Shown one piece after another: positions 14,363-49,209 of a DNA stretch of 49,209 nt (positions are counted from its first letter, which is position 1; every line of letters begins with the position of its first letter). Location of the stretch: the NCBI GenBank assembly GCA_905178155.1, contig CAJINV010000006.1:1-49209 (forward strand), given 5' to 3'. The position numbers and the translations under genes are program-made. The DNA is from Amoebophrya sp. A120. Taxonomy: Eukaryota > Protista > Dinoflagellata. The notes under the pieces are model-generated. The model did no database searches, was not told the DNA's origin, and was given only the letters and a program-made list of their open reading frames with translations.

Positions 14363-14623
14363 TTATTGCTTGTCCATCTCAGCCCGCCGCGCAGCCTCCA
14401 TTTCTTGCCACTGCATCTCCCGTTCTTCATCCCAGGATTGGCCTTGGTCCACCGAAGGGGAACCCACTTCCACGGACGGCGACCTGGCTACGACAGGAGG
14501 AAAGCGCCGTCGGGGCTGTAGGTTCCAGCGCCGTGCCAGGTACTCGTCCTCCGACGGCAAGCCACGCAGTTTGTCCAGCAGGTCGTCCAACCTGTCCCGC
14601 AAACACTGGAACAGCAGGTACAT
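14363..14623 (-). CDS. 86-aa small ORF, copy 1
   Basis: MYLLFQCLRDRLDDLLDKLRG..AEMDKQ*; conserved from start to stop with 19711-19971. Confidence 0.6.
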   Translation of the reverse strand: MYLLFQCLRDRLDDLLDKLRGLPSEDEYLARRWNLQPRRRFPPVVARSPSVEVGSPSVDQGQSWDEEREMQWQEMEAARRAEMDKQ

Positions 14624-15151
14624 GGGCGTGGTGCTATAGACTGGCAGTTGCTTGTTGGTTGTTGTACTTCGATAGATAGAAACAAAAATATCTGTGTGTC
14701 GGCCCCGACGGCACACTCCGTTTAGCTAGAACAATACACTGTGGAAGGACAAGCGAAAATGTTCATTCAGTGGCACACGAAGATCGCTCATTCACTCGGC
14801 TCCAGTGCGACAGTCATGCCGACATCAGAAATTCAGCGTACAAGGAACAACGAAGCCTACCACTGGCGATGCGACCTGATCTTTGGTTCATTCCCTGTAC
14901 ACGTCGAGCCCTCAAACGAATTTCTCTCCTGCTGTCCTCTCTCACAGTACGAAATCAAAATGCAGACGTTGCTTTTTGCGTCGAACACGCGCTGCGCTTT
15001 CACGCTCAACAACGAAGATTCATTTCCAATAAACGGCGCGACTTGGTTTTGTAGCCCACGACGCTTCCAGAGATACCGATCCGCAACTTTTTGGTCTAGT
15101 AGAGGTCTTTTTGCAAGACAAATATCACCCGAGAGGTCGAGGGGCTTGTTC

Positions 15152-19710: not shown

Positions 19711-19971
19711 CTATTGCCTGTCCATCTCAGCTCGTCGCGCAGCCTCCATTTCTTGCCACTGCATCTCCCGTTCTTCATCCCAGGATTGACCTTGGTCCAC
19801 CGAAGGGGAATCTACTTCCACGGACGGCGACCTGGCTACGACACGAGGAAAGCGCCGTCGGGGCTGTAGGTTCCAGCGCCGTGCCAGGTACTCGTCCTCA
19901 GACGGCAAGCCACGTAGTTTGTCTAGCAGGTCGTCCAGCTTGTCCCGCAAACACTGGAACAGCAGGTACAT
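19711..19971 (-). CDS. 86-aa small ORF, copy 2
   Basis: Differs from 14363-14623 at 4 amino acids, plus several synonymous changes. Confidence 0.6.
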   Translation of the reverse strand: MYLLFQCLRDKLDDLLDKLRGLPSEDEYLARRWNLQPRRRFPRVVARSPSVEVDSPSVDQGQSWDEEREMQWQEMEAARRAEMDRQ

Positions 19972-20824
19972 CTTCGTGTTGTTAACTACCGGCACGCGGC
20001 CTTTGTGACGCGAACTGTTTGTCAGAGAAAAAAAAACGACTTTGAGTTTGTTTTTGGTCGTCCACGAACAGCGCTTGTTCTATGCGGATCTACACTACGT
20101 CAGCGATTTGCAACAGCGAATTATAGATGGGTCAACGACCCTTTCACTCCGAGCGGGGTTTCTGGCTTGTTTCACTCCAACGAAAAAGCGACTCTTTGAT
20201 GCGCAGAAAGCGATAGAACAGGAACTGTTTCAAAGAAGTGGCGCTGCCTGCTTTTCAACAAGCGGGAGGCGTTCACTTTCACGGAAAGGAAAAAATTTCA
20301 TCACAAGCCAAAAATACTGGGAAGAGAAACAACAATCCGCGACAAAGATGTTGTTGGAACAATGAAACGCGCCGTCTCTTCAGCAGAAGTCTCTAGACAG
20401 AGCAGGGGAAACAAACGCTGCAGTAGACCTCAAATTCCTCAAGCGTCGCCGCAGAGAAGTCCGCTGGACGCACCGGCTTGTTGCAATAGCCACTGTAGCT
20501 GGACGGATGCGCGCAGGAGCCATCCCGACGAGATTCCCAACCTTGGGGGCACGCGCTGAAGTTGGGTTGGCAGGGTTGTATGGAGTGGAGAAATGTATTG
20601 CGTCTTTTTCTAGGACAATTTTGATTGTGTTTTTCTTCTGCCGGATCTGCTAGGTTTTACACGTTATCTCTTTACACACCTTCACATCACAGCTGCAAGA
20701 AGCGCATGACAGATTGCGTTCCGCGGAGATGCAATATTTTCTCTTTGCCTAGATTGGTCGCACTGCGCGTTGGCTCTTCCCGAGGCGACGTGTGCCTCTG
20801 CGGCTTTGGCAACGCTCGTCACGG

Positions 20825-22455: not shown

Positions 22456-22559
22456 GTCACATGGACGCTACGAGGTTTGCATGACATGCAGGGCGGACGC
22501 TAGCAACTTCCTGCCATTGTTGACGACGCGACAAAAAAAAGCAAAAAGACGGAACCGCG

Positions 22560-24045
22560 CAAACCGGCGCGGCCGGTTTTGCGGCTCCGCAAGTACATAG
22601 ACCCCTCACTGGAACAGGCACGGACATCCGGAGCCCCGAAAGATTCAACGCGCGCCGGGACTGACGAAGGCAGGCGCTGCCATCATTGACCACGCGGGCC
22701 AAAACAGAAAGCAGACGGCGACAAGCGCCGGCCGTTTGGTTCTTGTGCGCAAATCGGCGTGGCCGGTTTTGCGGCTCCACAAATACATACACCCCTCACC
22801 CGAAAAAGCATGGACATCCGGCGCCCCGAAAGATTCAACGCGCGCCGGGACTGACGAAGGCAGGCGCTGCCATCATTGACCACGCGGGCCAAAACAGAAA
22901 ACAGACGGCGACAAGCGCCGGCCGTTTGGTTCTTGTGCGCAAATCGGCGTGGCCGGTTTTGCGGCTCCACAAATACATACACCCCTCACCCGAAAAAGCA
23001 TGGACATCCGGCGCCCCGAAAGATTCAACGCGCGCCGGGACTGACGAAGGCAGGCGCTGCCATCATTGACCACGCGGGCCAAAACAGAAAACAGACGGCG
23101 ACAAGCGCCGGCCGTTTGGTTCTTGTGCGCAAATCGGCGTGGCCGGTTTTGCGGCTCCACAAATACATACACCCCTCACCCGAAAAAGCATGGACATCCG
23201 GCGCCCCGAAAGATTCAACGCGCGCCGGGACTGACGAAGGCAGGCGCTGCCATCATTGACCACGCGGGCCAAAACAGAAAACAGACGGCGACAAGCGCCG
23301 GCCGTTTGGTTCTTGTGCGCAAATCGGCGTGGCCGGTTTTGCGGCTCCACAAATACATACACCCCTCACCCGAAAAAGCATGGACATCCGGCGCCCCGAA
23401 AGATTCAACGCGCGCCGGGACTGACGAAGGCAGGCGCTGCCATCATTGACCACGCGGGCCAAAACAGAAAACAGACGGCGACAAGCGCCGGCCGTTTGGT
23501 TCTTGTGCGCAAATCGGCGTGGCCGGTTTTGCGGCTCCACAAATACATACACCCCTCACCCGAAAAAGCATGGACATCCGGCGCCCCGAAAGATTCAACG
23601 CGCGCCGGGACTGACGAAGGCAGGCGCTGCCATCATTGACCACGCGGGCCAAAACAGAAAACAGACGGCGACAAGCGCCGGCCGTTTGGTTCTTGTGCGC
23701 AAATCGGCGTGGCCGGTTTTGCGGCTCCACAAATACATACACCCCTCACCCGAAAAAGCATGGACATCCGGCGCCCCGAAAGATTCAACGCGCGCCGGGA
23801 CTGACGAAGGCAGGCGCTGCCATCATTGACCACACGGGCCAAAACAGAAAGCAGATGGCGACAAGCGCCGGCCGTTTGGTTCTTGTGCGCAAATCGGCGC
23901 GGCCGGGTTTGCGGCTCCGCAAGTACATAGACCCCTCACCCGAAAAAGCACGGACATCCGGCGCCCCGGAAGATTGAACGCGCGCAGGGACTGACGAAGG
24001 CAGGCGCTGCCATCATTGACCACGCGGGCCAAAAAAGAAAAGATA
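22560..24045 (+). repeat. 190-bp GC-rich satellite, ~7.8 copies
   Basis: cattgaccac recurs every 190 bp (22684-24014). Central copies are identical and edge copies diverged. Confidence 0.97.
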
Positions 24046-25206
24046 CGGAGACGGGGCGCCATCCTTCATCCAGGTCGCTAACCTAGTTCCATCTAGGTGC
24101 CGGGCGGGTGGGGTTTCCGTCCTTCATCTAGGTCGGTGACCTAGTTCCAACGAGGTCCCCGGGCCTCGTTCCAACTAGGCCCCAGGCAAATGGCATTTCC
24201 ATCCCCCACCCAGGTCCCGGACCCCTTTCCAGCTACTTAAGTCCCAGGCCTTCCCAAAAAATCCAGGCAACCACCTCCACCCCTGTAGGCGCCACCCCCC
24301 AGGAGCACGGAAACACATGGGGCGGGGCTGCTCCTGGTAGGAAAATCTAGGCCCCTCCCGGATCTCGTCCGGGAGGCCGTGAACCGGCCCGGGGGCAAAG
24401 CTTGTCGGATCGCAGGGCGACCGCGCTTCGACTTGGTCCGTGGGGGGCTGGGTTGACGATCCCGGGAATTTGTCTTGATGCGGTGACCGCGGACGACCAC
24501 GCTTCGACCAAAAGCTTCATCGGGAAACACAAGTGGCTTTGGGGCAGATTCTATAGAATTATGTCGCAACAAGTAGGAACATATACGTGAAACGATAAAT
24601 TTGTCACGAGCAGAAAACTATACATGTTCATCGCCGTCGTGTGCAGAGGATCTTCGTAAATAAATAAAACAGGTGTTGTGCGTTGTGATCAGGAAAAGAT
24701 AGGATCTTTGTCGTGGAAAAGAAGATCTTCGTCGCGCTTCCTGAACACGCAATACGGAGTGCATACTTTTACTGTGCTATAGTCCTTGCACCAGAACGGG
24801 CCAGCACTTCAACCTTTGCTGGGGCCTGTTTACTACTACGCTTTCCTGGTAATTCTTGTCCTTGCATCCAGCGGCGCAGCCTGCTGCGCCAGTTTTTCAA
24901 AAATTTCAATCTCATACCAGCACTTCCAGTTTCACTTCCGCGCAGCGTGGCAAATGGCTATTAGTGTCCCGGATCGAAAGGAAAGCATGCGTGTTCGTAC
25001 GATATACAAGACAAAAAAATTCATAGGGTGAACTGCTTTTCGGCTTCAAAATTTCATGTGAGACGCAGAGACGTGCAAGAGCTTTTTTTTGTCAGTACGA
25101 CCGTGTTTCTCGTCGTTTTGTCAATCTCGTTTTTTGCATTCTGCAAAATTGTTCGTCCTGTTCTATTGCGGAGCGGTAGCGTCGTCGTCGTGCTGAGCCT
25201 ACGTAT

Positions 25207-28200: not shown

Positions 28201-31200
28201 GGGAGTTCTTTCAGTGGGAGTTGTGCCATTGGTCGTCGTATGTTCGTCGCGGTCAGAGGATGTTGGTGTCCTCGCGCAGTGGTCATCGTCAAACCTAGTC
28301 GTGCTTGCGAGAGAAGAACGGGTGCTGTTTGCGCTGAAAAAATCGTCATGGGCAACATCGTGTTGATCTCTGTCGGTTGTGTATGCAAGAAAAAAACTGT
28401 GTAAGTGTAAGTCTGTCATGCAGAACATGCCACAGAGTTACACCTGTCATGCCAGACAACCATGAAGTCCGCTATTCGTGTGTGTTTTCCCTTACAAGCC
28501 ACGCATGATAGGTTTTCTCTGTCATCTAGAGCAAATTTGTGATGCTGTCAGCCAAAGAAAGTTACACTAACACAGGTTTTTTCTTGGATATGCTGCTGGG
28601 GTCTTTTACTATCATGCCGGACGGTGCAATCCTCGTGGTCCGGCTGTGCAGGAAGAGAAAAAAGCTCTGCGTAATCATCCCTAGAAGTACGCATATGACA
28701 TTCGTCCGATGGCGAATCGGATTCAAAAAACCGCAACAGCATAACAAATCGCTATAGGATGCTTGTTCGCAGCAGAACAGTTTTGCGCGATGCGATGCCT
28801 TCGTAGCAAGAAAATTATGCGCTGAATCGCTTGCCGTTGCAACGTAGAACTAAGACGTGCGAATAAAGTTTATTTTGCTGTGTAGTAGCAGGGATCGATT
28901 TGCATTGTTTTTCTTTTCCATATGATTGCGAGCAGGTATTCAGCAGCTGCAGCGACGCCGGTGCTCGCGTTTCTCCCTGTAGTACTTGCGGGTTTTGTGC
29001 AAATCCCTGGTCGGGCGTCACGAAGAAGTTCTTGAAGTAGCACTTTTGCAGCCGCGTGCCGCGGATGGTCACCGGCGCTTGCACTCGCAGGTTCCGGATT
29101 TCCAGCAGTCGGGCGACCCCTGGGACGCTGGTGACGGTGGACTGTTTGATCTTGACACAGACAGGAAAGTGCAAAACTGTCCCGCTCTCGGGCATAGGCG
29201 ATCTCCCGACCAGGACGACGGGCTTGGAAACGTACAGGACATCATTGCTCCGCTGCTCCGGCTTCTCGGAGGCGGAATTTTTCCCATTGCTATTCTTCAT
29301 CTGTCGACTGGCCGTTTTCGCCTTAGCTGTGGCGGTTACAGTTGCCGTTGTTCCATATACAAACTCCTGGCGATTTGTCGCTTCTGTTGGAGCTCCTGGT
29401 TTTCCTCTCCTCTGGTCAACATCTTCCTCGTTCTTGGCTAGCAGGGGTTGCTGCAAATCTTTGTCCTGATCTCGGTCTTCCTCCGGGATGGAGGATGCGT
29501 CGGATATCCTATGTAAAAACGTCCCCGCACCATAGTCAAAATGGAAAATCTGTTAGACAAATCAACCAGCTTTGGTTGCTGCGCATGACAAGTTTGGCCT
29601 CGTGGTGCGATCCTGTTCAGCTAGATCCAACAGCATCACAGATCTAGCCTATCATGCTGATTCGAGCATCACAAATTCCCAAACCTGAATAGAAAATGCT
29701 TCTCATGGGGCTTCGCAAGAGAAACATTTTGAGCATGCAGGTTTGCATGACAACCCTGCGGTGGGGACGTTTTTCCATGGGATATCGGACCCCTCCGTCG
29801 ATTTGGACCACCCGTCATTCCGGTCGCGAAATTCTTGTTCCAGAAACAGCAGGGAGGTCGTATCAAAAGGAAAAACCCCTCCTCCACATATCGAAAGCGT
29901 CGAAAGTTGTGATGCTGTATTCGAGTACAAAAACCGATTTGTCTTGCTAGAAGGCCAAGGGCCTCAGTTGTGGCCTCGCTTGCAGGCAATTTTTGATGCT
30001 GTTTGCCACTTCCAGCTGCCTCCTGTCATGCTGAAGATGCAAGGCTTCATTCCCTCGCCAGCCAGCACCAAAGTCCGCATCTTTTCTCTTCTAGCATGAC
30101 AAGATGATTTGTGTACACAAATACCGCATGACAGACTTCTATTTTGATATGGGGAAGGGGGATTTTTCATTTTGATAGTTCGCGGTGGCGCAGAGGTCGG
30201 AGGAACTGACATCGCTGCTCGACGAATTCTATAGATTGCAAAAATGTCTGGGTCTGGAAGAGGACAAGTTTGTCATGCACATTTTCTACGATCCATGATG
30301 TCTGTGATGTATGCCATAGCATCACAGATTTTGTGAGCGCTTATCGATGCGCATCCTGCATGACAAATGCCCTCCCCGCGTAGCCAAATTTGACTTCTCT
30401 TGCTGCTCATGAAATACAGATTTTTTTAGCAGCCACATGCAGCATCACAAGTTTGGCTCTTCCAGACCCAGACATTTTTGCATTTGATAAATTCGGCGCT
30501 TGCGTGCTGAACGGGGAGGAGGATAAAATTAATGTGGATGTAGTTATCCTGAGTAAAAGCGTTCCCACCCCAGAGTTGTCATGCAGATTTGCAATGGTAG
30601 GAAGATTTGTGATGCGTATGCCCATGATAGGCATTTCTGATTGTGTTTTGGAATTTGTAATGCGGTAAACAGGACAAGCAAATAAATTTTTAATGCGGCT
30701 ATCCTCGCCAACCTGCACTACACTACGGGCTGCAGCTTGTCATGCGGGACGCCCAAAACTTCTTGCGTTGTGTTGCGAAATCCCCCTTGACTCTCGGGGG
30801 GGGGACGTTTTTAGTCAGGATAGATGTAGTAGCCGGCTGCTGGGTCATTTTTTGGTATCGCGTCGCTTTTTCTCCCCTTGGCTCTGTAGTCGTCGTACTC
30901 GCGGTCAATAGGAACGAAGAATCCTGATCCGACCAGGTGTCTTGTTCATCCTCGGACGGCTGATCCGACTCCGAGTCAGTTTCATCACTTGCAGTTTGGT
31001 CGTAGGCCTTCGAGGTAGCTGCCGCATCTCGTTCCTCGCTGTTATCTCCTGCTAGAAGAACCACCGGTTGGCCAAGGAGAGAAATATTCCCGTCTAGCTG
31101 TGCTCCCCGACTTCCCGTAGACAGTCCGTCAGCTTCGGAATTGTTGCTGTTGCCGTTACGTTCGCGGCCACCTGACGCGAGTCCGACGCCCGGGCCGGAG

Positions 31201-32603: not shown

Positions 32604-33039
32604 ACATAAACACCTCCATCCGTGGTATGATTCGTTGTTCGCAGATGTACCGTTGCCGCTCGAAGTCAAACTGTCGGCATGCAAGAAAAAGGATGTCAAA
32701 GTGTACTACTTTGTTGCGCAGACACTGCAATACAGTTCTTACATTTGTCATGCTCAACTTGGCAGTCATAGCGCAGTTTCATATATCATCGGCGCATGAC
32801 AAGGTTTTGCTGCCATGCCCCACGCATTTGTGCTGCTGTTTTCCCAAAAGTGTCACACCAAAACATTTTTCTCTTGGATAATCGGATCACAACCTGCAAT
32901 GTGTGTCATGTATCTATCTCATCTCATGGCAAACTACATCGGATTGCGTAAAGAGATTCACGTGGGAGAGCTCCGAAACCGCCCCCCCCATCCCCCGCGC
33001 CGGGGTATTGCGTGGTACTCCCACGCCAGGGGATTTCTC

Positions 33040-33170
33040 GGCCGCGCCAGGGTGCGGAAACGGGCGTTGGCCGGACCCTTTTAAGGGAAACGGCGCGGAC
33101 CGCGCCGTTTCCCTTGAAGGATCCCAAAACCGACCAAGCAGCCGACCACGCCAGGGTGCGGAAACGTGCG
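33040..33170 (-). repeat. Inverted copy of the 104-bp palindrome-bearing repeat
   Basis: Reverse complement of the 482-748 unit; palindrome at 33083-33115. Confidence 0.9.
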
Positions 33171-33180
33171 GAGACGGGGG

Positions 33181-34090
33181 GGCGCCGCACCGGACCGGTG
33201 CGGCGCTAATGAAGAAGCACTGCTGCAGGCCAATTTTCAATCGGGAGAAGGCAGCAATGCTTCCCTCAAGGGCGCCGCACCGGACCGGTGCGGCGCTAAT
33301 GAAGAAGCACTGCTGCAGGCCAATTTTCAACCGGGAGAAGGCTTGCAGCAATGCTTCCCTCAAGGGCGCCGCACCGGACCGGTGCGGCGCTAATGAAGAA
33401 GCACTGCTGCAGGCCAATTTTCAATCGGGAGAAGGCAGCAATGCTTCCCTCAAGGGCGCCGCACCGGACCGGTGCGGCGCTAATGAAGAAGCACTGCTGC
33501 AGGCCAATTTTCAACCGGGAGAAGGCTTGCAGCAATGCTTCCCTCAAGGGCGCCGCACCGGACCGGTGCGGCGCTAATGAAGAAGCACTGCTGCAAGCCA
33601 ATTTCCAATCGGGAGAAGGCTTGCAGCAATGCTTCCCTCAAGGGCGCCGCACCGGACCGGTGCGGCGCTAATGAAGAGGCACTGCTGCAGGCCAATTTCC
33701 AATCGGGAGAAGGCTTGCAGCAATGCTTCCCTCAAGGGCGCCGCACCGGACCGGTGCGGCGCTAATGAAGAAGCACTGCTGCAGGCCAATTTCCAATCGG
33801 GAGAAGGCTTGCAGCAATGCTTCCCTCAAGGGCGCCGCACCGGACCGGTGCGGCGCTAATGAAGAAGCACTGCTGCAGGCCGATTTCCAATCGGGAGAAG
33901 GCTTGCAGCAATGCTTTCCTCAAGGGCGCCGCACCGGACCGGTGCGGCGCTAATGAAGAAGCACTGCTGCAGGCCAATTTCCAAGCGGGAGAAGGCTTGC
34001 AGCAATGCTTCCCTCAAGGGCGCCGCACCGGCTGCAAGCCAATTTTCAAGCGGGGGAAGGCTTGCAACAATGCTTCCCTCAAGCGGGAAA
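33181..34090 (+). repeat. 90/94-bp satellite (~9.5 copies), each with the 25-bp palindrome gcgccgcaccgg-a-ccggtgcggcgc
   Basis: Periods run 90, 94, 90, 94, 94...; the last unit is deleted from the palindrome axis. Confidence 0.97.
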
Positions 34091-35186: not shown

Positions 35187-37287
35187 CTATTGTGTTGGGA
35201 ACCGACGGTGAGAACGGACTCTCCTCGCGAATTCCGACGAGTTTTTCACTTCGTACTGCAGTTGCGGATACCGGATGTCCCAGGTTTTCCTCGTGGCCGC
35301 CTGCTGCAGTGACGGTTGCTCTGCTGGTGCCGCACTTTTTGCCGGCACGCTCGCGGCCGGCTCAACACTTGGGCCAGCGGGTTCCTCAGCGACGGTGTGC
35401 GGGTCTGCTTCCTGCTTTCCCGAGGACGCGCTGCTCCGGCCGCTGGTATTTATTTCCGCGCACACGACTTGCGCCGTTGGGTCGGAGGTGTCGTTATGCA
35501 CTGCAAAAATGTCTGGGTCTGGAAGCAGGATGGAACTTGTAATGCTAATTCTGGATCGTGCAAAAATCTGTGTTGCATGAATGCCAAAAGTTGTCCACTT
35601 TTGACCAAGTTGAGAGGAAGTTTCTCATGCAGGATAGGAATGATACGGATCTCACAGAATGATCTGTCATGCTAGGTCCTGCATTCCAGACGCTATAGTT
35701 CATGGAAAATCTGCATGACAAGGCGCACAACCTTCCAGACCCAGACATTTTTGCATTTGATAGTCGTCTCCAGTCGGACCACCGCCTTTTGTCGTGGTAG
35801 GGTCGGTGGTGGCGGGAGGATTCTCGTTATGCGTGGTGGTTGGGCCGCTGCCTGTAGTTCCACACAGAGGGAGCACGGGGACGTCGACCAGTTGTGGCAC
35901 CACCATGTGTGTACTGACAGCCCTTATCAAAATGAAAAATCCCCCTTCCCCAGGTCGAAACGGCACGCCTCAGAAAATTTGTAATGCTGATTTGTGACCA
36001 CAAATCGCGCCTGTCTTGTAAGAAAGCAACGCCACAGACAACCGCCCCATTATGCAGGCAGTTTGTAGTAATGCTGGTGGGCCTACAGCATAGACGCTCC
36101 TCATGCTACAGTGCCTAGGCCAAAACCTCTGTACCCTGGCATGATATGGCCATGCAATCCTCCACTGCAAGACAAAGGCGATTTGTGGCCACAAATCAGC
36201 ATTACAAATTTCCGTTTCGATATGGGGAGGGGGGATTTTTGCTCGCGATAGCCCTGCAGCAAGGGCACTTGAGCGGATTTTTCACGTGCTGGACGCGCGG
36301 GAGGATTTGCCCAGGAGAACGGAATATGCACTGCAAAAATGTCTGGGTCTGGAAACGTGTGATGCAAGAAGTCCGTCAATGACAAATGCACTGTAATGCG
36401 CGGCCAAGTATGACAAGTTTGTTTGAGCTTCTGTTCTGCGTACTTACTCCGCATCAGAAACTGCGTTTTTGTATGACAGGTGAGAGAGGCAGAGGCTGTT
36501 TTCTGGCCACGCAATACAGATTTGAGGGCCATGCCAGACCAGCATGGCAAGTCTCGCGAGCTCTCAGACCCAGACATATTTGCATTCGATACGGATCCGC
36601 ACTTCCCGCGTTGTGACCACGGTGGATTCATAGTCCTTTATGCAGGCCGTGTGGAAGACGTGGCCGCAGGTATCCTATGCAAAAACGTCCCCAGCACCCC
36701 AGAGTTGTCATGCAAATCTGCATGCTGAAAATGTTTCCCATGCGGAGCCCCATGAGAAGCATTTTTCGCTAGTCGAGTTTTTAGAATTTGTGATGCTCAA
36801 ACCAGCATAAGGCGCTAGATTTGTAACGCTGTTGCACTAGCTAAACACGACTACACTTCTGCCAGCCCAAACTTGTCATGCGTAACAGCCAAAGCTTGTC
36901 GATTTGTCTTGCAGATTTCCCAACTTGACTATGCCTATGGGATGGGGACGTTTTTACATATGATAGCAGGGGATCAGCTGGGACACCTGGTCGTCCGGAT
37001 CCATGATGTCCAAACAGATTTTATGGCGTTCTCAACTGTTACATCCTCAACTGTTACACGAATTTGTTATGCAAGAATGGCAAACAAAGTGAAAGGACGG
37101 AGCTTGCGCGTCTTGCATGACAGATTTGGTACAGATTTAGACGCTGTTATTACAGCCATTCGAGAACTTGTCATGCGAAGCAGCTGGATCGTCTGGTGGC
37201 TCATGGTCATTTTGCATGACAAGTCAGGTAGCAGTTGAGAATGTAACGTTTGAGAACGCCATAGATTTGGCATTCTGGCTGCAGCAT
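35187..37287 (-). CDS. RING-H2 (C3H2C3) finger protein, putative E3 ubiquitin ligase; 6 exons
   Basis: Spliced MLQPECQI|CLDIMDPDDQVSQLIPC|GHVFHTACIKDY..RIR|SPGQ..NPLKCPCCRA|VSTHMVVPQ..GDD|TSDPTAQ..FPTQ*. All eight zinc ligands are recovered. Confidence 0.85.
35495..35762. mobile_element. Introner, family A
   Basis: Family A TIRs; perfect TSD gtcgt. Confidence 0.93.
35925..36250. mobile_element. Introner, family C
   Basis: Family C TIRs; perfect TSD gccct. Confidence 0.92.
36325..36591. mobile_element. Introner, family A
   Basis: Family A TIRs; TSD cggaa/cggat. Confidence 0.9.
36671..36965. mobile_element. Introner, family B
   Basis: Family B TIRs; perfect TSD gcagg. Confidence 0.92.
37022..37263. 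mobile_element. Introner, family G
   Basis: tatggcgttctcaactgttacatcctcaactg ... cagttgagaatgtaacgtttgagaacgccata; perfect TSD gattt. Confidence 0.92.
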
Positions 37288-38303: not shown

Positions 38304-39447
38304 CTACGCTCTTCTCGTTAATAAAATACGTTTTTGCCGGGCACCTTGCGATCGTGGCGCTATTTCTCTTTCCATACTCCTCACATGCTATCATACGAAA
38401 AAAGTGTTTCCCTGTAAGGATTTTGCAAGTTGTGCATCACATGAAACAGAAAATCTGCCATGCGCGCTTCCCAATTTAAACCGCTCCTAAAAGTCCAATG
38501 TCTTGCGGGTGTAGCAAGACAGATACTTCTGTGTTCCATTCTATGCATCACAAGTTCACAGTGAAACAGTTTTTTCTTGTGATACATGCGACTCAATCTC
38601 CGTCCACTCTGGAGCCCGGTAGCGGTGCCCCGTGCCTTGCAGCAACACAGACGTGCAGCGGCCGGAAGACAGGAAGCCCGAGGCCGCCAGGTCACTTGCG
38701 TATCAAATGTAAAAGTGTCTGGGTCTGGAAGAATGCGAAATTTGTTATGCTGTTTTTGCATGACACAGAATGTCTGTCATGGAAGCCCTAGCATCACAGA
38801 TCTTTAGAGGCCTTCCTGATACCTGTGCTGCATGACAAATGCCCTCCACGCGTAGCACAAACCGGACTCCTTTTGCTGGTCATGCAATACAGAATTTTTT
38901 AGAGTCCAAAGTTAGCATCACAAGTTCCAACCTTCCACACCCAGACATTTTTGGAATCCATATTGCGGCCTGGCAGTCGATGATTTTGTCCTCGTCGCCG
39001 TGGAGAATCAGCACTTTTGGTCGACTATCAAGTGCAGAAATGTCTGGGTCTGGAAGGATGTAGCTTGTGATGCGCATTTCAGAACACACAAAAATCTCTG
39101 ATGCATAGGCAGCAAAAGCTGCTCACTTTCTCTCACCAAAATGGGTGACTTGTCATGCGGATTCGGCATTGCGGAAGCTTCTCGAAACCTGTGATGCTAG
39201 AGCTTCCATGCCAGACCTTCTGTGTCATGCAGAAACAGCATCACTATTCCAGACCCAGACATTTTTACATTTGATATCGACGCGGTGAAAAAACAGACGA
39301 ATTATCGGTGCTGGCAACACGACCCGGAAAAGATCCCGCTCGTTTCTCCTTGCCACCAGTTCTTTCTGCAATCTCGACTTTCACACTGCTTGTTGCAACA
39401 TCCGTGCTACAGTTTTTATCTGCGGCGGATGAAGCCGGCGCGTCGAG
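38304..39447 (-). CDS. C-terminal part of an alpha/beta-hydrolase; 5' part rearranged or lost in the gap (possible pseudogene)
   Basis: Spliced SPRR|PKVLILHGDEDKIIDCQAA|SDLAASGFLSSGRCTSVLLQGTGHRYRAPEWTEIESH|VRSMERE..RRA*. HGDED (catalytic Asp) and GTGH (catalytic His) motifs are present; no GxSxG was found. Confidence 0.72.
38389..38584. mobile_element. Introner, family E (opposite orientation to 9821)
   Basis: Family E TIRs; perfect TSD catgc. Confidence 0.92.
38701..38962. mobile_element. Introner, family A
   Basis: Family A TIRs; perfect TSD ttgcg. Confidence 0.92.
39026..39276. mobile_element. Introner, family A (duplicated at 41396-41646 and 43638-43888)
   Basis: Family A TIRs; perfect TSD tcgac. 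Confidence 0.92.
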
Positions 39448-39523
39448 TATCCTGTGTAAAAACGTGTCCATACCAGAGTCGAGATGGGAAATCTGCTAGA
39501 CAAATCAACCAGCTGTGGTTGCT

Positions 39524-40165: not shown

Positions 40166-43100
40166 NGCGGGCGCCGTCAACGCGCAGCAGCCCGGGCCCA
40201 GCGTCCCGATTTAATCGGCGAAACAGGTTGGGCCAAGGCGCTCTCCCGGCCGATTCTATCGTCGAAACAGGTCGCGCGGAGGTGTTTCGACGTCGAAACA
40301 CCTTCGCCCGAGCTGTTTCGCCGCTAGAATCGGGAAACACAGCCTGGTTGGCTCTCGTCTGCGCAGCCTTTTCTTTCTTGGCCGGCCCCCGTTCCAGAGG
40401 TTTTTCCCAGGCGGGCGATACCTCTGCGTTGGAGGTGGGGCCGCACCTTTCTTGGCCTTGCGAGCGGGACACGCACTGCCGCTGTGCGACAACGTGTGTG
40501 CCTGCCCAATTCATATACGTGTTATTTTTGAGTCATGGTTGGCGCAGAGCCCGTGGGGCTCACGGCCACCGAGACCACCACGCGTTTCTTGGAAGGCAGG
40601 AGTGAATGGAAGGCCAGCAACCTCGGGCGCTCGGCGAGTCGGTATTGGCAAGGCGCCCGGCCGCGCTATGGAGCGCGGCTGCATGCTCTGTATCTGTTTG
40701 CGTTTGGTATGCGGACATAGATATGCGTGCGCTTGTCTTGCTATGTGAATTGCTCACTGGTGGCCGTGCTCTATATGTTCTCTTCCGCCCTCGTCCTTCC
40801 CGGGGGCGTAGAGCCTTATTTCCAAATGGGACGCCACAGTGAAAATCCCACCTGGTAAGAGCGGTAGGAAAGTAGTGAGGCCGACGAGATCGGGCGTGAA
40901 TCGCGCCGGCGCCTGCACGTGCACAGAGCCCTTTTTGCGGCGTTTGAGGTGCCCCGCCGGGCTCTGCAGCGCACTCGTTTCCGCTGGCTATCGTGAATAT
41001 TTTCCGATAGCTATCGTAGTCGCGATGGTACCGGAATAAATGAGTGTGCGTCCATAGCTGTTATGCAACACAGATTTTTACTTGCTTCAGAATCTGCATC
41101 ACAGGTCTGCATCCTTCCAGTCGGAGTCCAGGGGGGGGTATTTGCAATGCATAGAATTCCGATTCGTCAAACGGGTACTTGGGTCCTGATACCTGTGCTG
41201 CATGACAAATGCCCTCCACGCGTAGCACAAACCGGACTCCTTTTGCTGGTCATGCAATACAGAATTTTTTAGAGTCCAAAGTTAGCATCACAAGTTCCAA
41301 CCTTCCACACCCAGACATTTTTGGAATCCATATTGCGGCCTGGCAGTCGATGATTTTGTCCTCGTCGCCGTGGAGAATCAGCACTTTTGGTCGACTATCA
41401 AGTGCAGAAATGTCTGGGTCTGGAAGGATGTAGCTTGTGATGCGCATTTCAGAACACACAAAAATCTCTGATGCATAGGCAGCAAAAGCTGCTCACTTTC
41501 TCTCACCAAAATGGGTGACTTGTCATGCGGATTCGGCATTGCGGAAGCTTCTCGAAACCTGTGATGCTAGAACTTCCATGCCAGACCTTCTGTGTCATGC
41601 AGAAACAGCATCACTATTCCAGACCCAGACATTTTTACATTTGATATCGACGCGGTGAAAAAACAGACGAATTATCGGTGCTGGCAACACGACCCGGAAA
41701 AGATCCCGCTCGTTTCTCCTTGCCACCAGTTCTTTCTGCAATCTCGACTTTCACACTGCTTGTTGCAACATCCGTGCTACAGTTTTTATCTGCGGCGGAT
41801 GAAGCCGGCGCGTCGAGTATCCTGTGTAAAAACGTGTCCATACCAGAGTCGAGATGGGAAATCTGCTAGACAAATCAACCAGCTGTGGTTGCTTCACATG
41901 ACAAATTTGTCCTTGTAGTGCAATCCTGTTTCAGTAGTTGAGCAGCATATACAGATCTAGCATATAATCAGGGTGAGACTAGAAAATGCTTCTCCTGGGG
42001 CTCCGCATGAGAAACTTTTTTGGCATGCAGATTTGCATGAGAACTCTGGCGTGGGGACATTTTTAATCAGGATCATATCGAGGAACGCTTCCAGGTGTCG
42101 GCACTTCAGATTGATGCCGCCGCGTTTGATGGCGTTGTTCAGTCGCTGCTTGAATTCCGCTTCGTCAAACGGGTACTTGGATCCGTGGTAGAGCGGCAGC
42201 ATCTGGTTTTGCAGGGTTTGGAGTTGTTGGATTCTGCTTTTCGGCAGGCGCCCGGCTCCTTTGTTTCGCCTCTTTCTTCGACGCTTGCCACTGCCAGCAC
42301 GCGCTGGCCGGGCGGCTTTTCTCGTCAAGTTCCGCCGGCAATAGGTTATGGACAGCTGTGGCCCTGTGCCGCGGAGTTTTCCCCCATTTCCTGTTCTGTT
42401 TCTGTCCCGCGGGCGCCGTCAACGCGCAGCAGCCCGGGCCCAGCGTCCCGATTTAATCGGCGAAACAGGTTGGGCCAAGGCGCTCTCCCGGCCGATTCTA
42501 TCGTCGAAACAGGTCGCGCGGAGGTGTTTCGACGTCGAAACACCTTCGCCCGAGCTGTTTCGCCGCTAGAATCGGGAACCACAGCCTGGTTGGCTCTCGT
42601 CTGCGCAGCCTTTTCTTTCTTGGCCGGCCCCCGTTCCAGAGGTTTTTCCCAGGCGGGCGATACCTCTGCGTTGGAGGTGGGGCCGCACCTTTCTTGGCCT
42701 TGCGAGCGGGACACGCACTGCCGCTGTGCGACAACGTGTGTGCCTGCCCAATTCATATACGTGTTATTTTTGAGTCATGGTTGGCGCAGAGCCCGTGGGG
42801 CTCACGGCCACCGAGACCACCACGCGTTTCTTGGAAGGCAGGAGTGAATGGAAGGCCAGCAACCTCGGGCGCTCGGCGAGTCGGTATTGGCAAGGCGCCC
42901 GGCCGCGCTATGGAGCGCGGCTGCATGCTCTGTATCTGTTTGCGTTTGGTATGCGGACATAGATATGCGTGCGCTTGTCTTGCTATGTGAATTGCTCACT
43001 GGTGGCCGTGCTCTATATGTTCTCTTCCGCCCTCGTCCTTCCCGGGGGCGTAGAGCCTTATTTCCAAATGGGACGCCACAGTGAAAATCCCACCTGGTAA

Positions 43101-44059
43101 GAGCGGTAGGAAAGTAGTGAGGCCGACGAGATCGGGCGTGAATCGCGCCGGCGCCTGCACGTGCACAGAGCCCTTTTTGCGGCGTTTGAGGTGCCCCGCC
43201 GGGCTCTGCAGCGCACTCGTTTCCGCTGGCTATCGTGAATATTTTCCGATAGCTATCGTAGTCGCGATGGTACCGGAATAAATGAGTGTGCGTCCATAGC
43301 TGTTATGCAACACAGATTTTTACTTGCTTCAGAATCTGCATCACAGGTCTGCATCCTTCCAGTCGGAGTCCAGGGGGGGGTATTTGCAATGCATAGAATT
43401 CCGATTCGTCAAACGGGTACTTGGGTCCTGATACCTGTGCTGCATGACAAATGCCCTCCACGCGTAGCACAAACCGGACTCCTTTTGCTGGTCATGCAAT
43501 ACAGAATTTTTTAGAGTCCAAAGTTAGCATCACAAGTTCCAACCTTCCACACCCAGACATTTTTGGAATCCATATTGCGGCCTGGCAGTCGATGATTTTG
43601 TCCTCGTCGCCGTGGAGAATCAGCACTTTTGGTCGACTATCAAGTGCAGAAATGTCTGGGTCTGGAAGGATGTAGCTTGTGATGCGCATTTCAGAACACA
43701 CAAAAATCTCTGATGCATAGGCAGCAAAAGCTGCTCACTTTCTCTCACCAAAATGGGTGACTTGTCATGCGGATTCGGCATTGCGGAAGCTTCTCGAAAC
43801 CTGTGATGCTAGAGCTTCCATGCCAGACCTTCTGTGTCATGCAGAAACAGCATCACTATTCCAGACCCAGACATTTTTACATTTGATATCGACGCGGTGA
43901 AAAAACAGACGAATTATCGGTGCTGGCAACACGACCCGGAAAAGATCCCGCTCGTTTCTCCTTGCCACCAGTTCTTTCTGCAATCTCGACTTTCACACTG
44001 CTTGTTGCAACATCCGTGCTACAGTTTTTATCTGCGGCGGATGAAGCCGGCGCGTCGAG

Positions 44060-44316
44060 TATCCTGTGTAAAAACGTGTCCATACCAGAGTCGAGATGGG
44101 AAATCTGCTAGACAAATCAACCAGCTGTGGTTGCTTCACATGACAAATTTGTCCTTGTAGTGCAATCCTGTTTCAGTAGTTGAGCAGCATATACAGATCT
44201 AGCATATAATCAGGGTGAGACTAGAAAATGCTTCTCCTGGGGCTCCGCATGAGAAACTTTTTTGGCATGCAGATTTGCATGAGAACTCTGGCGTGGGGAC
44301 ATTTTTAATCAGGATA
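44060..44316. mobile_element. Introner, family B (duplicated at 41818-42077 and 39448-gap)
   Basis: Family B TIRs; perfect TSD tcgag. Confidence 0.9.
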
Positions 44317-44800
44317 TCGAGGAACGCTTCCAGGTGTCGGCACTTCAGATTGATGCCGCCGCGTTTGATGGCGTTGTTCAGTCGCTGCTTGAATTCCGCT
44401 TCGTCAAACGGGTACTTGGATCCGTGGTAGAGCGGCAACATCTGGTTTTGCAGGGTTTGGAGTTGTTGGAGCTTTTTTCTTCTTGCAGGTCATGCATACG
44501 CTGCAGACATCTCTGCATCATCTGGAAAGATGCAGCCTGTAGCCCGTATTTTGCACTCCTGCAAAACCTGCGCTGCACAACCTGGAGAACGCAGCTCGTA
44601 GTGCGTGCCGTGTTCGAGAAAGCGCCATAAACAAAAAATGCCGCGCCTGCCTGTGCTCAGAAGCTGTGGAAGCACACGTACTTCGATCAGCGTTCCAAGC
44701 TTCGCCCAGACCCACTCAAGTTCTCCGATGATATTTTCTAACCCTATATCCTTACATGTGCTAGCGAGATCCACGAGGCGCAGGCACCAGCTCGGGAAGA

Positions 44801-45047
44801 TATCAACTGCAAACATAACTGGCTCTGGTTCTGGAGGTGGTCACGCAGGTTCATTGGTTCATCCTATTTGTTTGCCTCTGCATCACAAATTTTTAGCGCT
44901 TGGCTTATCCTTGGTTATCCGTGCATCACAAGTTTTTGGCTATCCTTGCTCGCAGGTGGTTATTGCTATTGGTTTATCCTTGCATCACAAATTTTTAGCG
45001 AGTTTGCAGCTCTCCAGACCCAGAGACATATATATTTGCAGTGGATA
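44801..45047. mobile_element. Introner, degenerate family A with internal tgcatcacaa repeats
   Basis: tatcaactgcaaacata ... tatttgcagtggata; no TSD. Confidence 0.7.
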
Positions 45048-45979
45048 TGGCTTGCGGGAGTATGTTTTTATAGATGAGGTCCTTTTCCCGAAATCGGTTG
45101 CGTCACGCCGCTCCTTCGCCACCGCCCAACTTCAACAGATTTTGGAGATCCACGCCGCAGCCCTGGGCGAGAGCAGGTCGGAGCACCTTTTTGTGTCAGT
45201 TTTTCTTGATGGATACCGGAGGAGAACGAGAAGCTTTGCACAGCTCTAATCAATGTATTAGTTTAACAATGTTGACAGAGCAACAACATCCATTTTCCAA
45301 AACAAAAACACGAACTCATGACCGTTTCGTTCTCCGGGTCCGTGGCGTAGAAGTTGCTGGCGCTTCAAAGGTGGATTCTCAACAGCGGCCGCACTCGAAC
45401 CAACTGCGCGCTCCCAGAATTCCGCAGCGCTAGTACTCTTCTCCGAACGTCACAGCTATCTCCTCGGCCCCTAACGAACCTTCTCTCAACTTTTACTTTA
45501 TTCGAAGGTCGTTTGCAAAAATTACAAATGTCCGTTCTTGTGAGACCCTTACCAGCGTAGCCGCTAATAACGGTTTTGCGAGTAGAGCGGCAGCATCTGG
45601 TTTTGCAGGGTTTGGAGTTGTTGGAACGCGTCCCGCAGCCAGATCCGCAGCCTAGGGAGGGACATTTGGGTCTAGCTGCTTAGCATTACAAACGGCTGTC
45701 CTCTAAGCCCAACAGCATGCCAAAGCGCTTCCATAATGGCGCGGAAGCCTCTGCATTTGTCTTCTTGCAAGACAGACGTGATTTGTGGTCTCAAATCAGC
45801 AAGACAAATATTCGGAAGCACGCCTTTTCGATATGGGGAGGGGGGATTTTTCCTCTCAATACTTACCCTAGCCTACTAACTAGCGTTCTCGGACGCTGCG
45901 TCTGCTATATCAAATGTTTTGTGCAATCTGCCATCGGTGTAAACAACAAATATACAAGTACGTTATCTCGTCGCTTTCC

Positions 45980-46294
45980 TATTACAATGAAAAATGCCCC
46001 CACCCCCGAACTTGAAAGCATTTGTATTGCAAATCTTTCCAAATGAATATGAAACATTCGCCCTCTTGCGTGTATCAGCATCACAGATTTCCGATCGTGA
46101 ATAGCAAAAATTTGTATTGCAAAAGATCCCAGCAAGAGCGGTGCTTGTCATGCAAGCGATGCGAAACACGACTAGAATTATCTGCATCAGAAAGATTCTT
46201 ACTCCTTTCATGCATGACAAAAAGCTTTCATTTGGAAACTTCGCATCACAAATTGTTGCAATTTCAGGGGTGGGGGGCATTTTTCCCTTTGATA
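45980..46294. mobile_element. Introner, B-like family
   Basis: tattacaatgaaaaatgcccc ... ggggcatttttccctttgata; perfect TSD tttcc. Confidence 0.9.
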
Positions 46295-46751
46295 TTTCCT
46301 CGCGCTGGTTTTCGTCCTCGTTTCTCCCGCGCTGCTCCGGAGGCGAGCAAGTGGAGCGCCATGCTTATCATCTGCAAAAATGTCTGGGTCTGGAAACTTG
46401 TGTTGCTGATACTTGCATTGCAAACTTGCTGCTTGTACGGCGTAACAGCATGAGAAATTTCCCTCAGCTCCTTGCCGATTCATTCGTCTTTAGCATTACA
46501 AACTGTTAGGAACAACAGCTGCGCGGTGGATCCGGCTGGACCACGAGGACCTTATCAAATGCAAAAATGTCTGGGTCTGGAAACTTGTGATGCTGTGTGG
46601 CGTATCATGAGGAGGCGACAATTGCTGGCTCAGCATGGCAAGTTTCTGAGCTTCTAGGTGTTGCCTATTCTGCATGGTAGAGCGGCAGCATCTGGTTTTG
46701 CAGGGTTTGGAGTTGTTGGAACGCGTCCCGCCCTGTTTTGCTCCACACACC

Positions 46752-47024
46752 TATTGGAAGGAAATATTCCCCCTCCCCATATCGAAAAGAAAATTTGTGC
46801 TGCTGATTCTTGACTTTGTCTTGCGCACAAGGCAGTCTGTCATGCAGTTTCGCCTATGTCGGACTTGTTTCTCATGCTCAGCTGCTAGCCGGATGCGGAT
46901 CCAAAAGGGCTTAGAATATGCCGACAAGCTGCTCTCGCTGCAATACAAAGCTCATTTGTATACACAAATCCAGCAACACAAATTGTCTTTTGAATACGGG
47001 GTGGGGTCTTTTTTCTCTTTGATA
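46752..47024. mobile_element. Introner, family C
   Basis: TSD acacc/acgcc; empty site at 48299-48303. Confidence 0.9.
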
Positions 47025-47094
47025 ACGCCATAGCGGCTCAGCGTGCCACTGGCCTGAAGGGCGGTCAGCTTGCCCCGCAACTCGATGACCTGGG

Positions 47095-47311
47095 TATCGT
47101 GAGAAAAAAGTGCTTCCCTGTAAGGATTTTGGCAGGTTTGCATCACAAATTGGTAATACACATGACAAAGAAAACTTGCCATGCGAGGTTCCTAGGCGAA
47201 AACAGAGCTAAAAACTCAATGTCTTGCATGTGTAGCAAGACAAACGCGTCTTTGTTCCATTCTATGCATCACATATTTATTACAGTGAAACAGTTTTTAT
47301 TTCTCGCGATA
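47095..47311. mobile_element. Introner, family E
   Basis: Perfect TSD ctggg; empty site at ~48364-48368. Confidence 0.92.
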
Positions 47312-47883
47312 CTGGGGGTCGGTCGTGTACTTGGACAACCGGTCCTCGGGCAGCACTGCAGATGAACCGTCTGGGCTGGTTGCGGCGGAGGTTTTCTTCA
47401 CTGGGTTCTCCGCCTCGTTCTGCTCTTCGCTGCTGCGCGCGCCAGCATAAGGGGCAGTTGACCAGACGGCACACATGTCGCAGCACAATTCTCTTCCACA
47501 AACCGCTTCCGCGGGAGCACGCAGCGTCTGGCTGCTTTCACGAGTTGCACGGCTTTCGGTAGCGCTTGTTTCTCAGTCCTAATCCTGCCTCCCGCCCGCG
47601 GCTCTTGCGCCTCGACCAGCGCGCGGCCCAAGCTGTCCCACAGAGCTGGGTAGCTGACCACCGGCTCTCCTGTTTTGCTGCTCACCCCCACTGCGGCACG
47701 CATGGCTTGCGAGACTGCGCCTGGCTGCTGCAGTACTTCTTCCGCCCGTTGCACTTCCCTCATTGCTGGCGGCGCGTCCGCACCGCCCGGACCCGCAACA
47801 GGAGCCCCTGCTCCAGCGCCGGCCTGCTGCTCTTGCTCGTTGACCTCACCGATTCGCAGGACTAGTTCCACCGCGGCACGGAT

Positions 47884-48150
47884 TATCAAATGCAAATATG
47901 TCTGGGTCTGGAAAAGTGCAACGTTTGTCATGCACGTTTTGCATGACGCGTGAGGTCTGTGATGCATGCCATAGCATCACAGATTCTGTGAGATCTTTTC
48001 CATGCCTTTTCCGCATAAGAAACCGTCTCTCGGCTTTCTCAAAAGTGAACAGCTTTTGTTGGTAATCATGCAACACAGATTTTTGTATGATTCAGAACTA
48101 GCATGACAAGTCGCACTCTTCCAGACATCCAGGGATATTTGCAACGCATA
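47884..48150. mobile_element. Introner, family A
   Basis: Family A TIRs; perfect TSD cggat. Confidence 0.92.
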
Positions 48151-49209
48151 CGGATTTCGTGTACTTTCAAGTCCACGGATGCATTTCGCTCACTTTCGCT
48201 TACTTTCGCGTGGACTAGCTTGTCAAAGGATCCGTGGTAGCATCTGGTTTTGCAGGGTTTGGAGTTGTTGGAACGCGTCCCGCCCTGTTTTGCTCCACAC
48301 GCCATAGCGGCTCAGCGCGCCACTGGCCTGAAGGGCGGTCAGCTTGCTCCGCAACTCGATCACCTCAGGGTCGGTTGTGTACTTGGACAACCGGTCAGCT
48401 GCGGCGGTCACTGGGCTGGTTGCGGCGGAGGTCTTCACTGGGCTCTTGTCCTGGTGGTTAATGATCTCCCCTGCGCTGCTGCGCGCGGTGCCATAGGGGG
48501 CAGTTGACAGGAGGACTACATGCGACACTTGGATTTTGTGCTTCAGCTGCAGCATATCGTCGGAAGAAGCCCCCCCCTGCTCCCGATACTGAAAGGTCTG
48601 CGATGCTGATTTGTGGCCACGAATAAGCTCTGTCTTTTGCAAGCAGGCAAATCCGGAGGCTCCGCCACATTATAGTACAGGCGTTTTGTAATAAAACGCT
48701 GCAAGGCCTACGCCGAAGACGTCTGCCATGCTAGGCGCCTACAGGAAAAAGTTCTACTTAGGCTTATAGTATCTGTGCCTGCAGTGGTCCCCTACTGCAA
48801 GTGACAAGGCTGATTTGATGTGTACAAAAATCCCGCGTTCCCAGGTTTCGGTTTGAATATGGGGACGAGCATAGCCCCCTCGAAGAAGCTATTGCACGAG
48901 ATCCAGGTCTATCAAATGTAAAAATGTCTGGGTCTGGAAAAGTGGAGCTTGTAATGCGTGTCATGCATTCCTGGAAAATTTTATTTCACGTTGATAACAG
49001 ATATGTTGGAAAAAAAAAAATCTCAAGGAAATTCTACCGACGGCCTAAGGAGATTCTCCCTCAAGGAGATTCTCTCCCTGCCGTACGAAGGAAAAGAGTA
49101 CTGCGTGTAGTATGACCTAGGTTCCAGCAATTATTAGGCGAGGACTCTTCATGACGACACGAAACGCAAAAGCTCAGACTCGGCCACCTCAGTTCTGTGG
49201 CTCGCACAG

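What the first reader, a model, noticed from the sequence alone, without database searches (positions are those of the whole stretch)
46690..48400. Empty and filled sites side by side show insertion with a 5-bp duplication
The module at 48241-48400 is uninterrupted (ctccac-acgcc-atag; gatcac-ctcag-ggtcgg). Its duplicate reads ctccac-acacc-[C element]-acgcc-atag and gatgac-ctggg-[E element]-ctggg-ggtcgg. The exon copies are still very similar, so two intron gains (or precise losses) are recent. A third case: X carries an A-type arm ending at 41153 beside gaattccg, where D (~42153) has none.
Basis: seen in the sequence. Interest (0 to 1): 0.72.

Follow-up and report, generated by a model that had tools for sequence, protein, structure and literature searches.

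The report
Empty and filled introner insertion sites
Two copies of one gene fragment in a parasitic dinoflagellate differ by two small mobile elements, each flanked by a 5-base duplication of the empty site, which likely records two insertions of an already described intron-forming element family and is a clean example, not a new system.

Summary
The first two cases are real. Removing C (46752-47024) or E (47095-47311) plus five bases restores a gap-free match to the empty copy. The 5-bp repeat is general: exact in 17 of 30 family elements, with no peak at other lengths. DNA contigs hold a third copy, empty at both sites, with inferred targets ACACC and CTGGG, matching the filled copy's repeats. 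RNA-like contigs skip a neighbouring element plus five bases. The elements fit the published Amoebophrya A120 introners (TAT ends, 3-5 nt repeats), and a neighbouring fragment hits A120 proteins.

Corrections: both copies are broken gene scraps fused to another gene. They are 96% alike over 158 nt but only 77% beyond it, so 'recent' is relative. The third case is a lone right arm and cannot be tested. Gain after the copies split is likely (about 0.7) but unrooted; the third copy could be a cDNA-derived loss. The scan had no note on this genome; one unchecked note describes a similar geometry in Euglena. Known system, with useful direct evidence.

The parts
46752..47024 (.). Element C, 273 nt, TAT...ATA inverted ends; one of 5 members of its family in the window
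   Evidence: predicted fold z -6.1 against 100 shuffles
46747..46751 (.). Left 5-bp repeat of C (ACACC); equals the inferred target of the third, empty copy
47025..47029 (.). Right 5-bp repeat of C (ACGCC); equals the empty target at 48299-48303
47095..47311 (.). Element E, 217 nt, TAT...ATA inverted ends; one of 3 members of its family in the window
   Evidence: predicted fold z -4.8
47090..47094 (.). Left 5-bp repeat of E (CTGGG)
47312..47316 (.). Right 5-bp repeat of E (CTGGG); equals the inferred target of the third copy
46675..47476 (-). Filled copy of the module: coding-like fragment, cut at both ends; about 100 open codons once C and E plus 5 nt each are removed
48239..48554 (-). Empty copy of the module (targets 48299-48303 and 48364-48368); an 8-nt deletion at its 3' end against the four other copies of that stretch leads to a stop
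47477..48235 (-). Fragment of an unrelated gene between the two copies (residues 109-270 of a relative of the 1133-aa A120 protein P0003, 79-83% identity), holding the A-type element 47884-48150 with repeat CGGAT
   Evidence: RNA-like contigs of a paralogue skip 272 = 267+5 nt
45980..46294 (.). Neighbouring element (315 nt, repeat TTTCC, ends like those of C); RNA-like contigs of X5 and X7 skip 320 = 315+5 nt, and DNA run X1 shows no such join
48555..48873 (.). C-like element upstream of the empty copy, right end broken; its first 154 nt lie on a contig shared by the empty and the third copy
41063..41153 (.). Third case: lone A-type right arm (twin 43305-43395) before a 33-nt scrap of the same gene; no left arm, no left flank
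42075..42231 (-). D: downstream exon of the same gene, uninterrupted at 42152-42156 (twin 44314-44470)

Best explanation
C and E are short non-coding elements with TAT...ATA inverted ends, of the kind described as Amoebophrya A120 introners, each between two copies of a 5-bp sequence that stands once in the empty copies, and both likely inserted after the filled copy split from the window's empty copy. Shown: anatomy, 5-bp repeat, empty targets, multi-copy families, and removal of element plus one repeat in RNA-like contigs for one neighbouring element. Inferred: a transposase or integrase supplied in trans cuts the target with a 5-nt stagger and without sequence preference; repair makes the repeat; the paired ends mark the stretch to be cut from the RNA, so element plus one repeat is lost and the old coding sequence returns. 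The host copies here were broken and shuffled at some point, so C and E now sit in gene scraps.
For: Gap-free empty/filled alignment. Exact 5-bp repeat in 17 of 30 family members and at most one mismatch in 27 of 30; at most 2 exact at any other length from 2 to 9. The repeats are 28 different 5-mers plus one seen twice, with no clear base preference. Removing element+5 opens stop-free minus-strand frames over 9 elements (353 aa) and 4 elements (204 aa); other lengths give no frame over the whole cluster. RNA-like contigs skip 315+5 nt with exact or near-exact flanks. A third copy is empty at both sites; contig borders allow only ACACC and CTGGG as its targets. The filled copy differs from the third at 4-5 sites and from the window's empty copy at 6-7, while the two empty copies differ at 7. 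57 of 60 arms fit TAT...AAA, the A120 rule in PMC7789003 section 11. The neighbouring fragment hits A120 proteins.
Against: No outgroup: with three copies the branch counts (filled 2, third 2-3, empty 4-5) do not exclude a root on the filled branch. The third copy is identical to the empty copy over 48398-48708 yet differs at 8 of 97 sites next to it, so the history is reticulate. The two repeats of C differ, and each variant matches a different empty copy. Both host copies are broken, so C and E need never have been spliced from a working gene. In the largest cluster (14 hand-picked elements) element+5 gave the longest frame (499 aa) but not one over the whole cluster. The RNA status of X5-X8 is the tool's guess, and the 272-nt skip comes from a paralogue whose DNA state is unknown. 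No transposase was identified.
Confidence: 0.72

Rival explanations
1. C and E are older than all three copies and were lost precisely from both empty copies, by recombination with spliced cDNA or between the repeats.
For: Two adjacent elements are missing together, as expected of cDNA-mediated loss (recalled). A root on the filled branch is not excluded (one search counts). PMC7789003 section 16 says gain and loss could not be told apart between orthologues.
Against: The two empty copies differ from each other at more sites than the filled and third copy do. They carry different variants of the C repeat, so one shared loss needs a further change. Both keep an element 190 nt upstream (48555), so neither is a whole retrocopy. 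E's repeats are identical to each other and differ from the window's empty target at 2 of 5 bases.
Confidence: 0.15
2. Gain, then loss: both elements inserted after the split from the window's empty copy, and the third copy is a later conversion by spliced cDNA of a filled-type gene.
For: C has a GC-AG register on the coding strand; splicing there would leave ACACC, the third copy's allele, and would explain the C mismatch with one substitution instead of two. The third copy's filled-like tract is short and sits in DNA otherwise identical to the empty copy.
Against: The third copy differs from the filled copy at 4 further sites, so the donor would be another, unseen gene. Conversion from an empty sister gene, or repeated change at a CpG site, explains the same letters. 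The third copy is known only from contig borders.
Confidence: 0.2
3. C and E are plain MITE insertions into an already dead gene scrap and never acted as introns.
For: The filled copy is cut at both ends and out of frame with what lies upstream. Five copies of one 32-nt stretch with different breakpoints show a scrambled region.
Against: Elements of the same families restore frames elsewhere in the window, and an element with C-like ends is skipped in RNA-like contigs. The 52 codons compared between filled and empty copy hold no stop, with 3 silent and 3 replacement changes.
Confidence: 0.3
4. The pair is an assembly artefact.
For: It lies 6-8 kb from an N gap and near a 2,242-bp near-identical tandem repeat.
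Against: X1 contigs carry both arrangements without differences and show the element ends as loose ends on the empty module.
Confidence: 0.02

Closest known systems
Amoebophrya sp. A120 introner elements (Farhat et al. 2021, PMC7789003; sections 11, 12, 16, passages and supplement legends read, figures not seen)
   Same: Inverted ends starting TAT with an A run, short direct repeats at the borders (3-5 nt in the text; 5 bp in the legend of Fig. S19), length near 240 nt, mostly no GT-AG, many families, no transposase inside.
   Different: The paper did not separate gain from loss and gives the repeat as 3-5 nt. Here one length, 5 bp, holds for four families when counted from the TAT/ATA ends, and empty targets are seen directly.
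A120 introner families in Gozashti et al. 2025 (PMC12130899; passages, and 13 of 58 A120 rows of supplement file 8 read)
   Same: Classed mostly as TIR DNA transposons of unknown superfamily.
   Different: Automated duplication lengths in the 13 rows seen are 2 (2 rows), 3 (2), 4 (4), 5 (1) and none (4). I could not match those families to the four here.
Introners of Micromonas, Aureococcus and Fritillaria (review PMC11282704 and PMC9860276, passages read)
   Same: MITE-like elements with terminal inverted repeats and a target duplication that become introns; an empty orthologue was used as a check in Aureococcus.
   Different: Those use fixed splice dinucleotides carried by the element or taken from the duplication. 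Here only 4 of 30 elements offer GT-AG on either strand in any register.
Ginger/Tdd transposons (PMC2836005, passages read)
   Same: Inverted ends; Tdd-4 and Tdd-5 make 5-bp duplications.
   Different: Ginger ends are TGTNR and most make 4-bp duplications; ends here are TAT.

Membership tests
Amoebophrya A120 introner elements | Inverted ends starting TAT, then about seven free bases and at least three A | tested here: met
   57 of 60 arms of 30 elements; all four arms of C and E fit. Arms were picked with a looser form of this motif, so the count is not independent.
Amoebophrya A120 introner elements | Direct repeat of 3-5 nt at the borders | tested here: met
   5 bp: exact in 17 of 30, at most one mismatch in 27 of 30
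Amoebophrya A120 introner elements | Repeated family in the genome | tested here: met
   C has 4 and E has 2 relatives in the window; many X1 contigs at 90% or more lie on both
Amoebophrya A120 introner elements | Hairpin joining the two ends | tested here: met
   Predicted only: z -6.1 (C) and -4.8 (E), 15 and 20 end-to-end pairs
Amoebophrya A120 introner elements | Spliced out of RNA | tested here: inconclusive
   A join is seen for neighbour 45980-46294 and, from a paralogue, for 47884-48150; none is listed for C or E (15 of 404 joints shown)
Amoebophrya A120 introner elements | Host is Amoebophrya A120 or a close relative | tested here: met
   Both hits of the neighbouring fragment are named Amoebophrya sp. 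A120 (79% and 64%); these are paralogues, not the locus itself
Amoebophrya A120 introner elements | Match to a published family model | not testable with these tools
   Family sequences were not on hand
MITE (non-autonomous TIR DNA transposon) | Target-site duplication shown against an empty site | tested here: met
MITE (non-autonomous TIR DNA transposon) | Autonomous partner with matching ends | not testable with these tools
   No whole genome held
Ginger/Tdd | TGTNR termini | tested here: not met
   Ends are TAT against TGTNR
Canonical U2 introns | GT-AG or GC-AG borders | tested here: not met
   E has no such register; C has one GC-AG register on the coding strand; GT-AG is possible in 4 of 30, only 1 on the minus strand

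The most novel reading that the evidence does not exclude
One small gene family shows the whole life cycle of a non-canonical introner: an ancestral empty state, two gains with a fixed 5-bp duplication made by a single unknown integrase serving all TAT-ended families, exact removal of element plus one duplication without fixed splice dinucleotides, and a later coupled loss of both elements by cDNA conversion in the third copy.
Probability: 0.15. Interest if true: 0.65.

Novelty: new member of a known kind. Interest (0 to 1): 0.33.

Why it matters
The A120 introners and their short repeats are published, and a review already calls the repeats target-site duplications. The pair adds direct empty-site evidence and points to a single duplication length of 5 bp, where published calls run from 2 to 5. 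That narrows the search for the missing mobiliser and gives a simple annotation rule: element plus five bases. A genome-wide screen of paralogue pairs would make gain versus loss testable in this lineage. A single pair in broken gene scraps does not settle it.

Tried and rejected
No whole genome is held, so no genome-wide family or transposase search was possible. No RNA holder was listed with certainty. RNA-like contigs gave no cover on the module exons (X5, X7 at 90%; X6, X8 at 80% on the empty copy only); contigs show presence only, so I do not count this as silence. Searches for relatives of the module found no outgroup: none (longer proteins only), none in metagenome contigs, and the two hits are long repeat proteins whose scores add up over 13 and 7 weak stretches, rejected. 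Pfam found nothing for the module; a 20-aa downstream exon gave alpha/beta-hydrolase families at E 0.09-0.16 only, so that label is a hint. No target-sequence preference in 30 sites. Ginger membership was rejected on the termini. The third case was rejected as a test. The first automatic element lists paired some inner repeats wrongly, C among them; C was put in by hand, two tandem twins were dropped, and 15 candidates without a relative were left out of the 30 (all 45: 19 exact, 30 with at most one mismatch). The contig model reproduces 6 observed borders but not that of record 1 (48243-48300) when the whole window is used, so the contigs are not pure unitigs everywhere. Literature searches listed no paper on Amoebophrya empty/filled pairs; I read only the papers named, and files 13-14 of the PMC12130899 supplement and all figures were unseen.

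Full report
Setting. The window is eukaryotic DNA crowded with elements of about 190-330 nt that begin TAT and end ATA. By similarity 32 of 47 candidates fall into four families of 15, 9, 5 and 3. A fragment between the two modules hits two proteins named Amoebophrya sp. A120 (79% and 64%). The ends fit the rule published for A120 introners (PMC7789003 section 11): 57 of 60 arms, though the arms were chosen with a looser form of that motif.

The observation. C is 46752-47024, between ACACC and ACGCC; E is 47095-47311, between two CTGGG. The empty copy reads ACGCC at 48299-48303 and CTCAG at 48364-48368. Taking out each element and one 5-mer gives a gap-free alignment over both junctions and one open minus-strand frame. 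Over 48239-48396 the copies differ at 6 of 158 sites (7 with the left repeat). Beyond that they match at 90 of 117 aligned columns, with 25 gap columns. Contigs of DNA run X1 carry both arrangements; X1 may be the source of the assembly.

The 5-bp repeat is the rule. Of 47 candidates 21 have an exact 5-bp flanking repeat; permuted flanks give 0.125 on average and 2 at most. After putting C in by hand, dropping two tandem twins and keeping members of multi-copy families, 17 of 30 are exact and 27 of 30 have at most one mismatch; no other length from 2 to 9 gives more than 2 exact. The repeats share no sequence, as expected of duplicated targets. Removing element+5 gives stop-free frames over 9 elements (353 aa) and 4 elements (204 aa), and other lengths do not span those clusters; in a 14-element cluster it gave the longest frame but not a complete one.

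Splicing. Contigs of runs X5 and X7 (RNA by the tool's guess) skip 45975-46294, which is the 315-nt element plus 5 nt, with 0-1 differences in the flanks; X1 shows no such join. They also skip 272 nt at the 267-nt element 47884-48150, but those contigs come from a paralogue whose DNA state I could not see (15 of 404 joints shown). No join over C or E was listed. GT-AG is possible in only 4 of 30 elements on either strand; E has no canonical register, C has one GC-AG register on the coding strand. Both elements are predicted to fold end to end (z -6.1 and -4.8).

A third copy. Laying contigs on the empty module showed a further copy without either element: X3 record 14 runs 48271-48469, and X1 records 3, 6 and 7 carry other letters. 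Two of its letters were not listed. Modelling 31-letter words, only A at 48301 and G at 48366 reproduce the observed contig borders, so its targets are inferred to be ACACC and CTGGG. The model misses one border further left, so this is a strong inference, not a read sequence. The copy could be a paralogue or a variant haplotype.

Direction. Over 48301-48376 the filled copy differs from the third at 4-5 sites and from the window's empty copy at 6-7; the two empty copies differ at 7. The filled copy thus sits nearer the third, and two gains are simpler than two separate double losses. The counts are small and there is no root, so a single loss in an ancestor of both empty copies is not excluded. 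The third copy is identical to the window's empty copy from 48398 to 48708, including 154 nt of the next element, so one of them received a conversion tract; both keep that upstream element and are not whole retrocopies. C's two repeats each match a different empty copy. Splicing C at its GC-AG register would leave ACACC, so the third copy could be a cDNA-derived loss after the gain. I put gain after the split from the window's empty copy at about 0.7.

The host is not an intact gene. The filled copy ends in a stop two codons after it leaves the shared sequence and is out of frame with what precedes it; the empty copy has an 8-nt deletion and a stop. Between them lie residues 109-270 of a relative of a 1133-aa protein, and contigs of the intact relative leave the window at 48235 and near 47483. 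One 32-nt stretch of the module occurs five times with different breakpoints. Downstream exons at 38585-39025 and 43889-44470 suggest an alpha/beta-hydrolase-like protein (weak Pfam hint).

Third case. The arm at 41063-41153 is a lone right end; the left arm and D's left flank are absent, and the 33-nt scrap after it jumps into another element. It fits a further insertion but tests nothing.

What is known. Farhat et al. describe the elements, give repeats of 3-5 nt, show 5-bp repeats in a supplementary example (legend only) and state that gain and loss could not be told apart. A review calls the repeats target-site duplications. Gozashti et al. 2025 class most of the A120 families I saw as TIR transposons of unknown superfamily, with automated duplication lengths of 2-5 or none in 13 of 58 rows. 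Ginger elements have TGTNR ends and are not a match. My searches listed no paper on empty/filled pairs in Amoebophrya, but the library is partial and some supplements were unseen.

Verdict. A real and clean instance of a known system. It adds direct empty-site evidence and a uniform 5-bp length, but leaves the direction unrooted and the mobiliser unknown. Interest 0.33.

Noticed in passing
window 40167-48560: Scrambled region: five copies of one 32-nt coding stretch (42200, 44439, 45594, 46689, 48241), each with different breakpoints, some with short shared sequence at the join; fragments of at least two genes are interleaved.
   Followed up: partly
window 40167-44470: 2,242-bp tandem repeat next to a 643-nt N gap; the two units differ at 6 alignment columns, and 38814-39523 is a third partial unit. 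Could be real or an assembly effect.
   Followed up: partly
window 35240-37030 (-): RING-finger gene split by four elements; element+5 restores 204 codons; one exon hits RING families (best E 0.00027, below curated cut-offs).
   Followed up: partly
window 6240-9800 (-): Gene with nine elements in about 1,060 nt of exon; element+5 restores a 353-codon frame.
   Followed up: partly
window 45865-46532: RNA-like contigs splice one element here but run through an A-type left arm at 46366; no long frame on either strand. Possibly a UTR or non-coding transcript.
   Followed up: partly
window 30545-30822: One element has an exact 8-bp flanking repeat instead of 5.
   Followed up: no
window 41818-42077 vs 44060-44316: The twin copies of one element differ by 3 nt at the right end (GATCATA vs GATA), with the same 5-bp repeat.
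   Followed up: no
window 22557-24052 and 33180-34083: Tandem arrays of about 190-nt and 90-94-nt units; related pieces at 378-762 and 33038-33170.
   Followed up: no
window 14364-14636 and 19712-19984: Two copies of a 273-nt coding-like stretch, 94% identical.
   Followed up: no
window 1-49209: All gene models restored here read on the minus strand, in line with the co-oriented gene clusters reported for Amoebophrya (abstract).
   Followed up: partly
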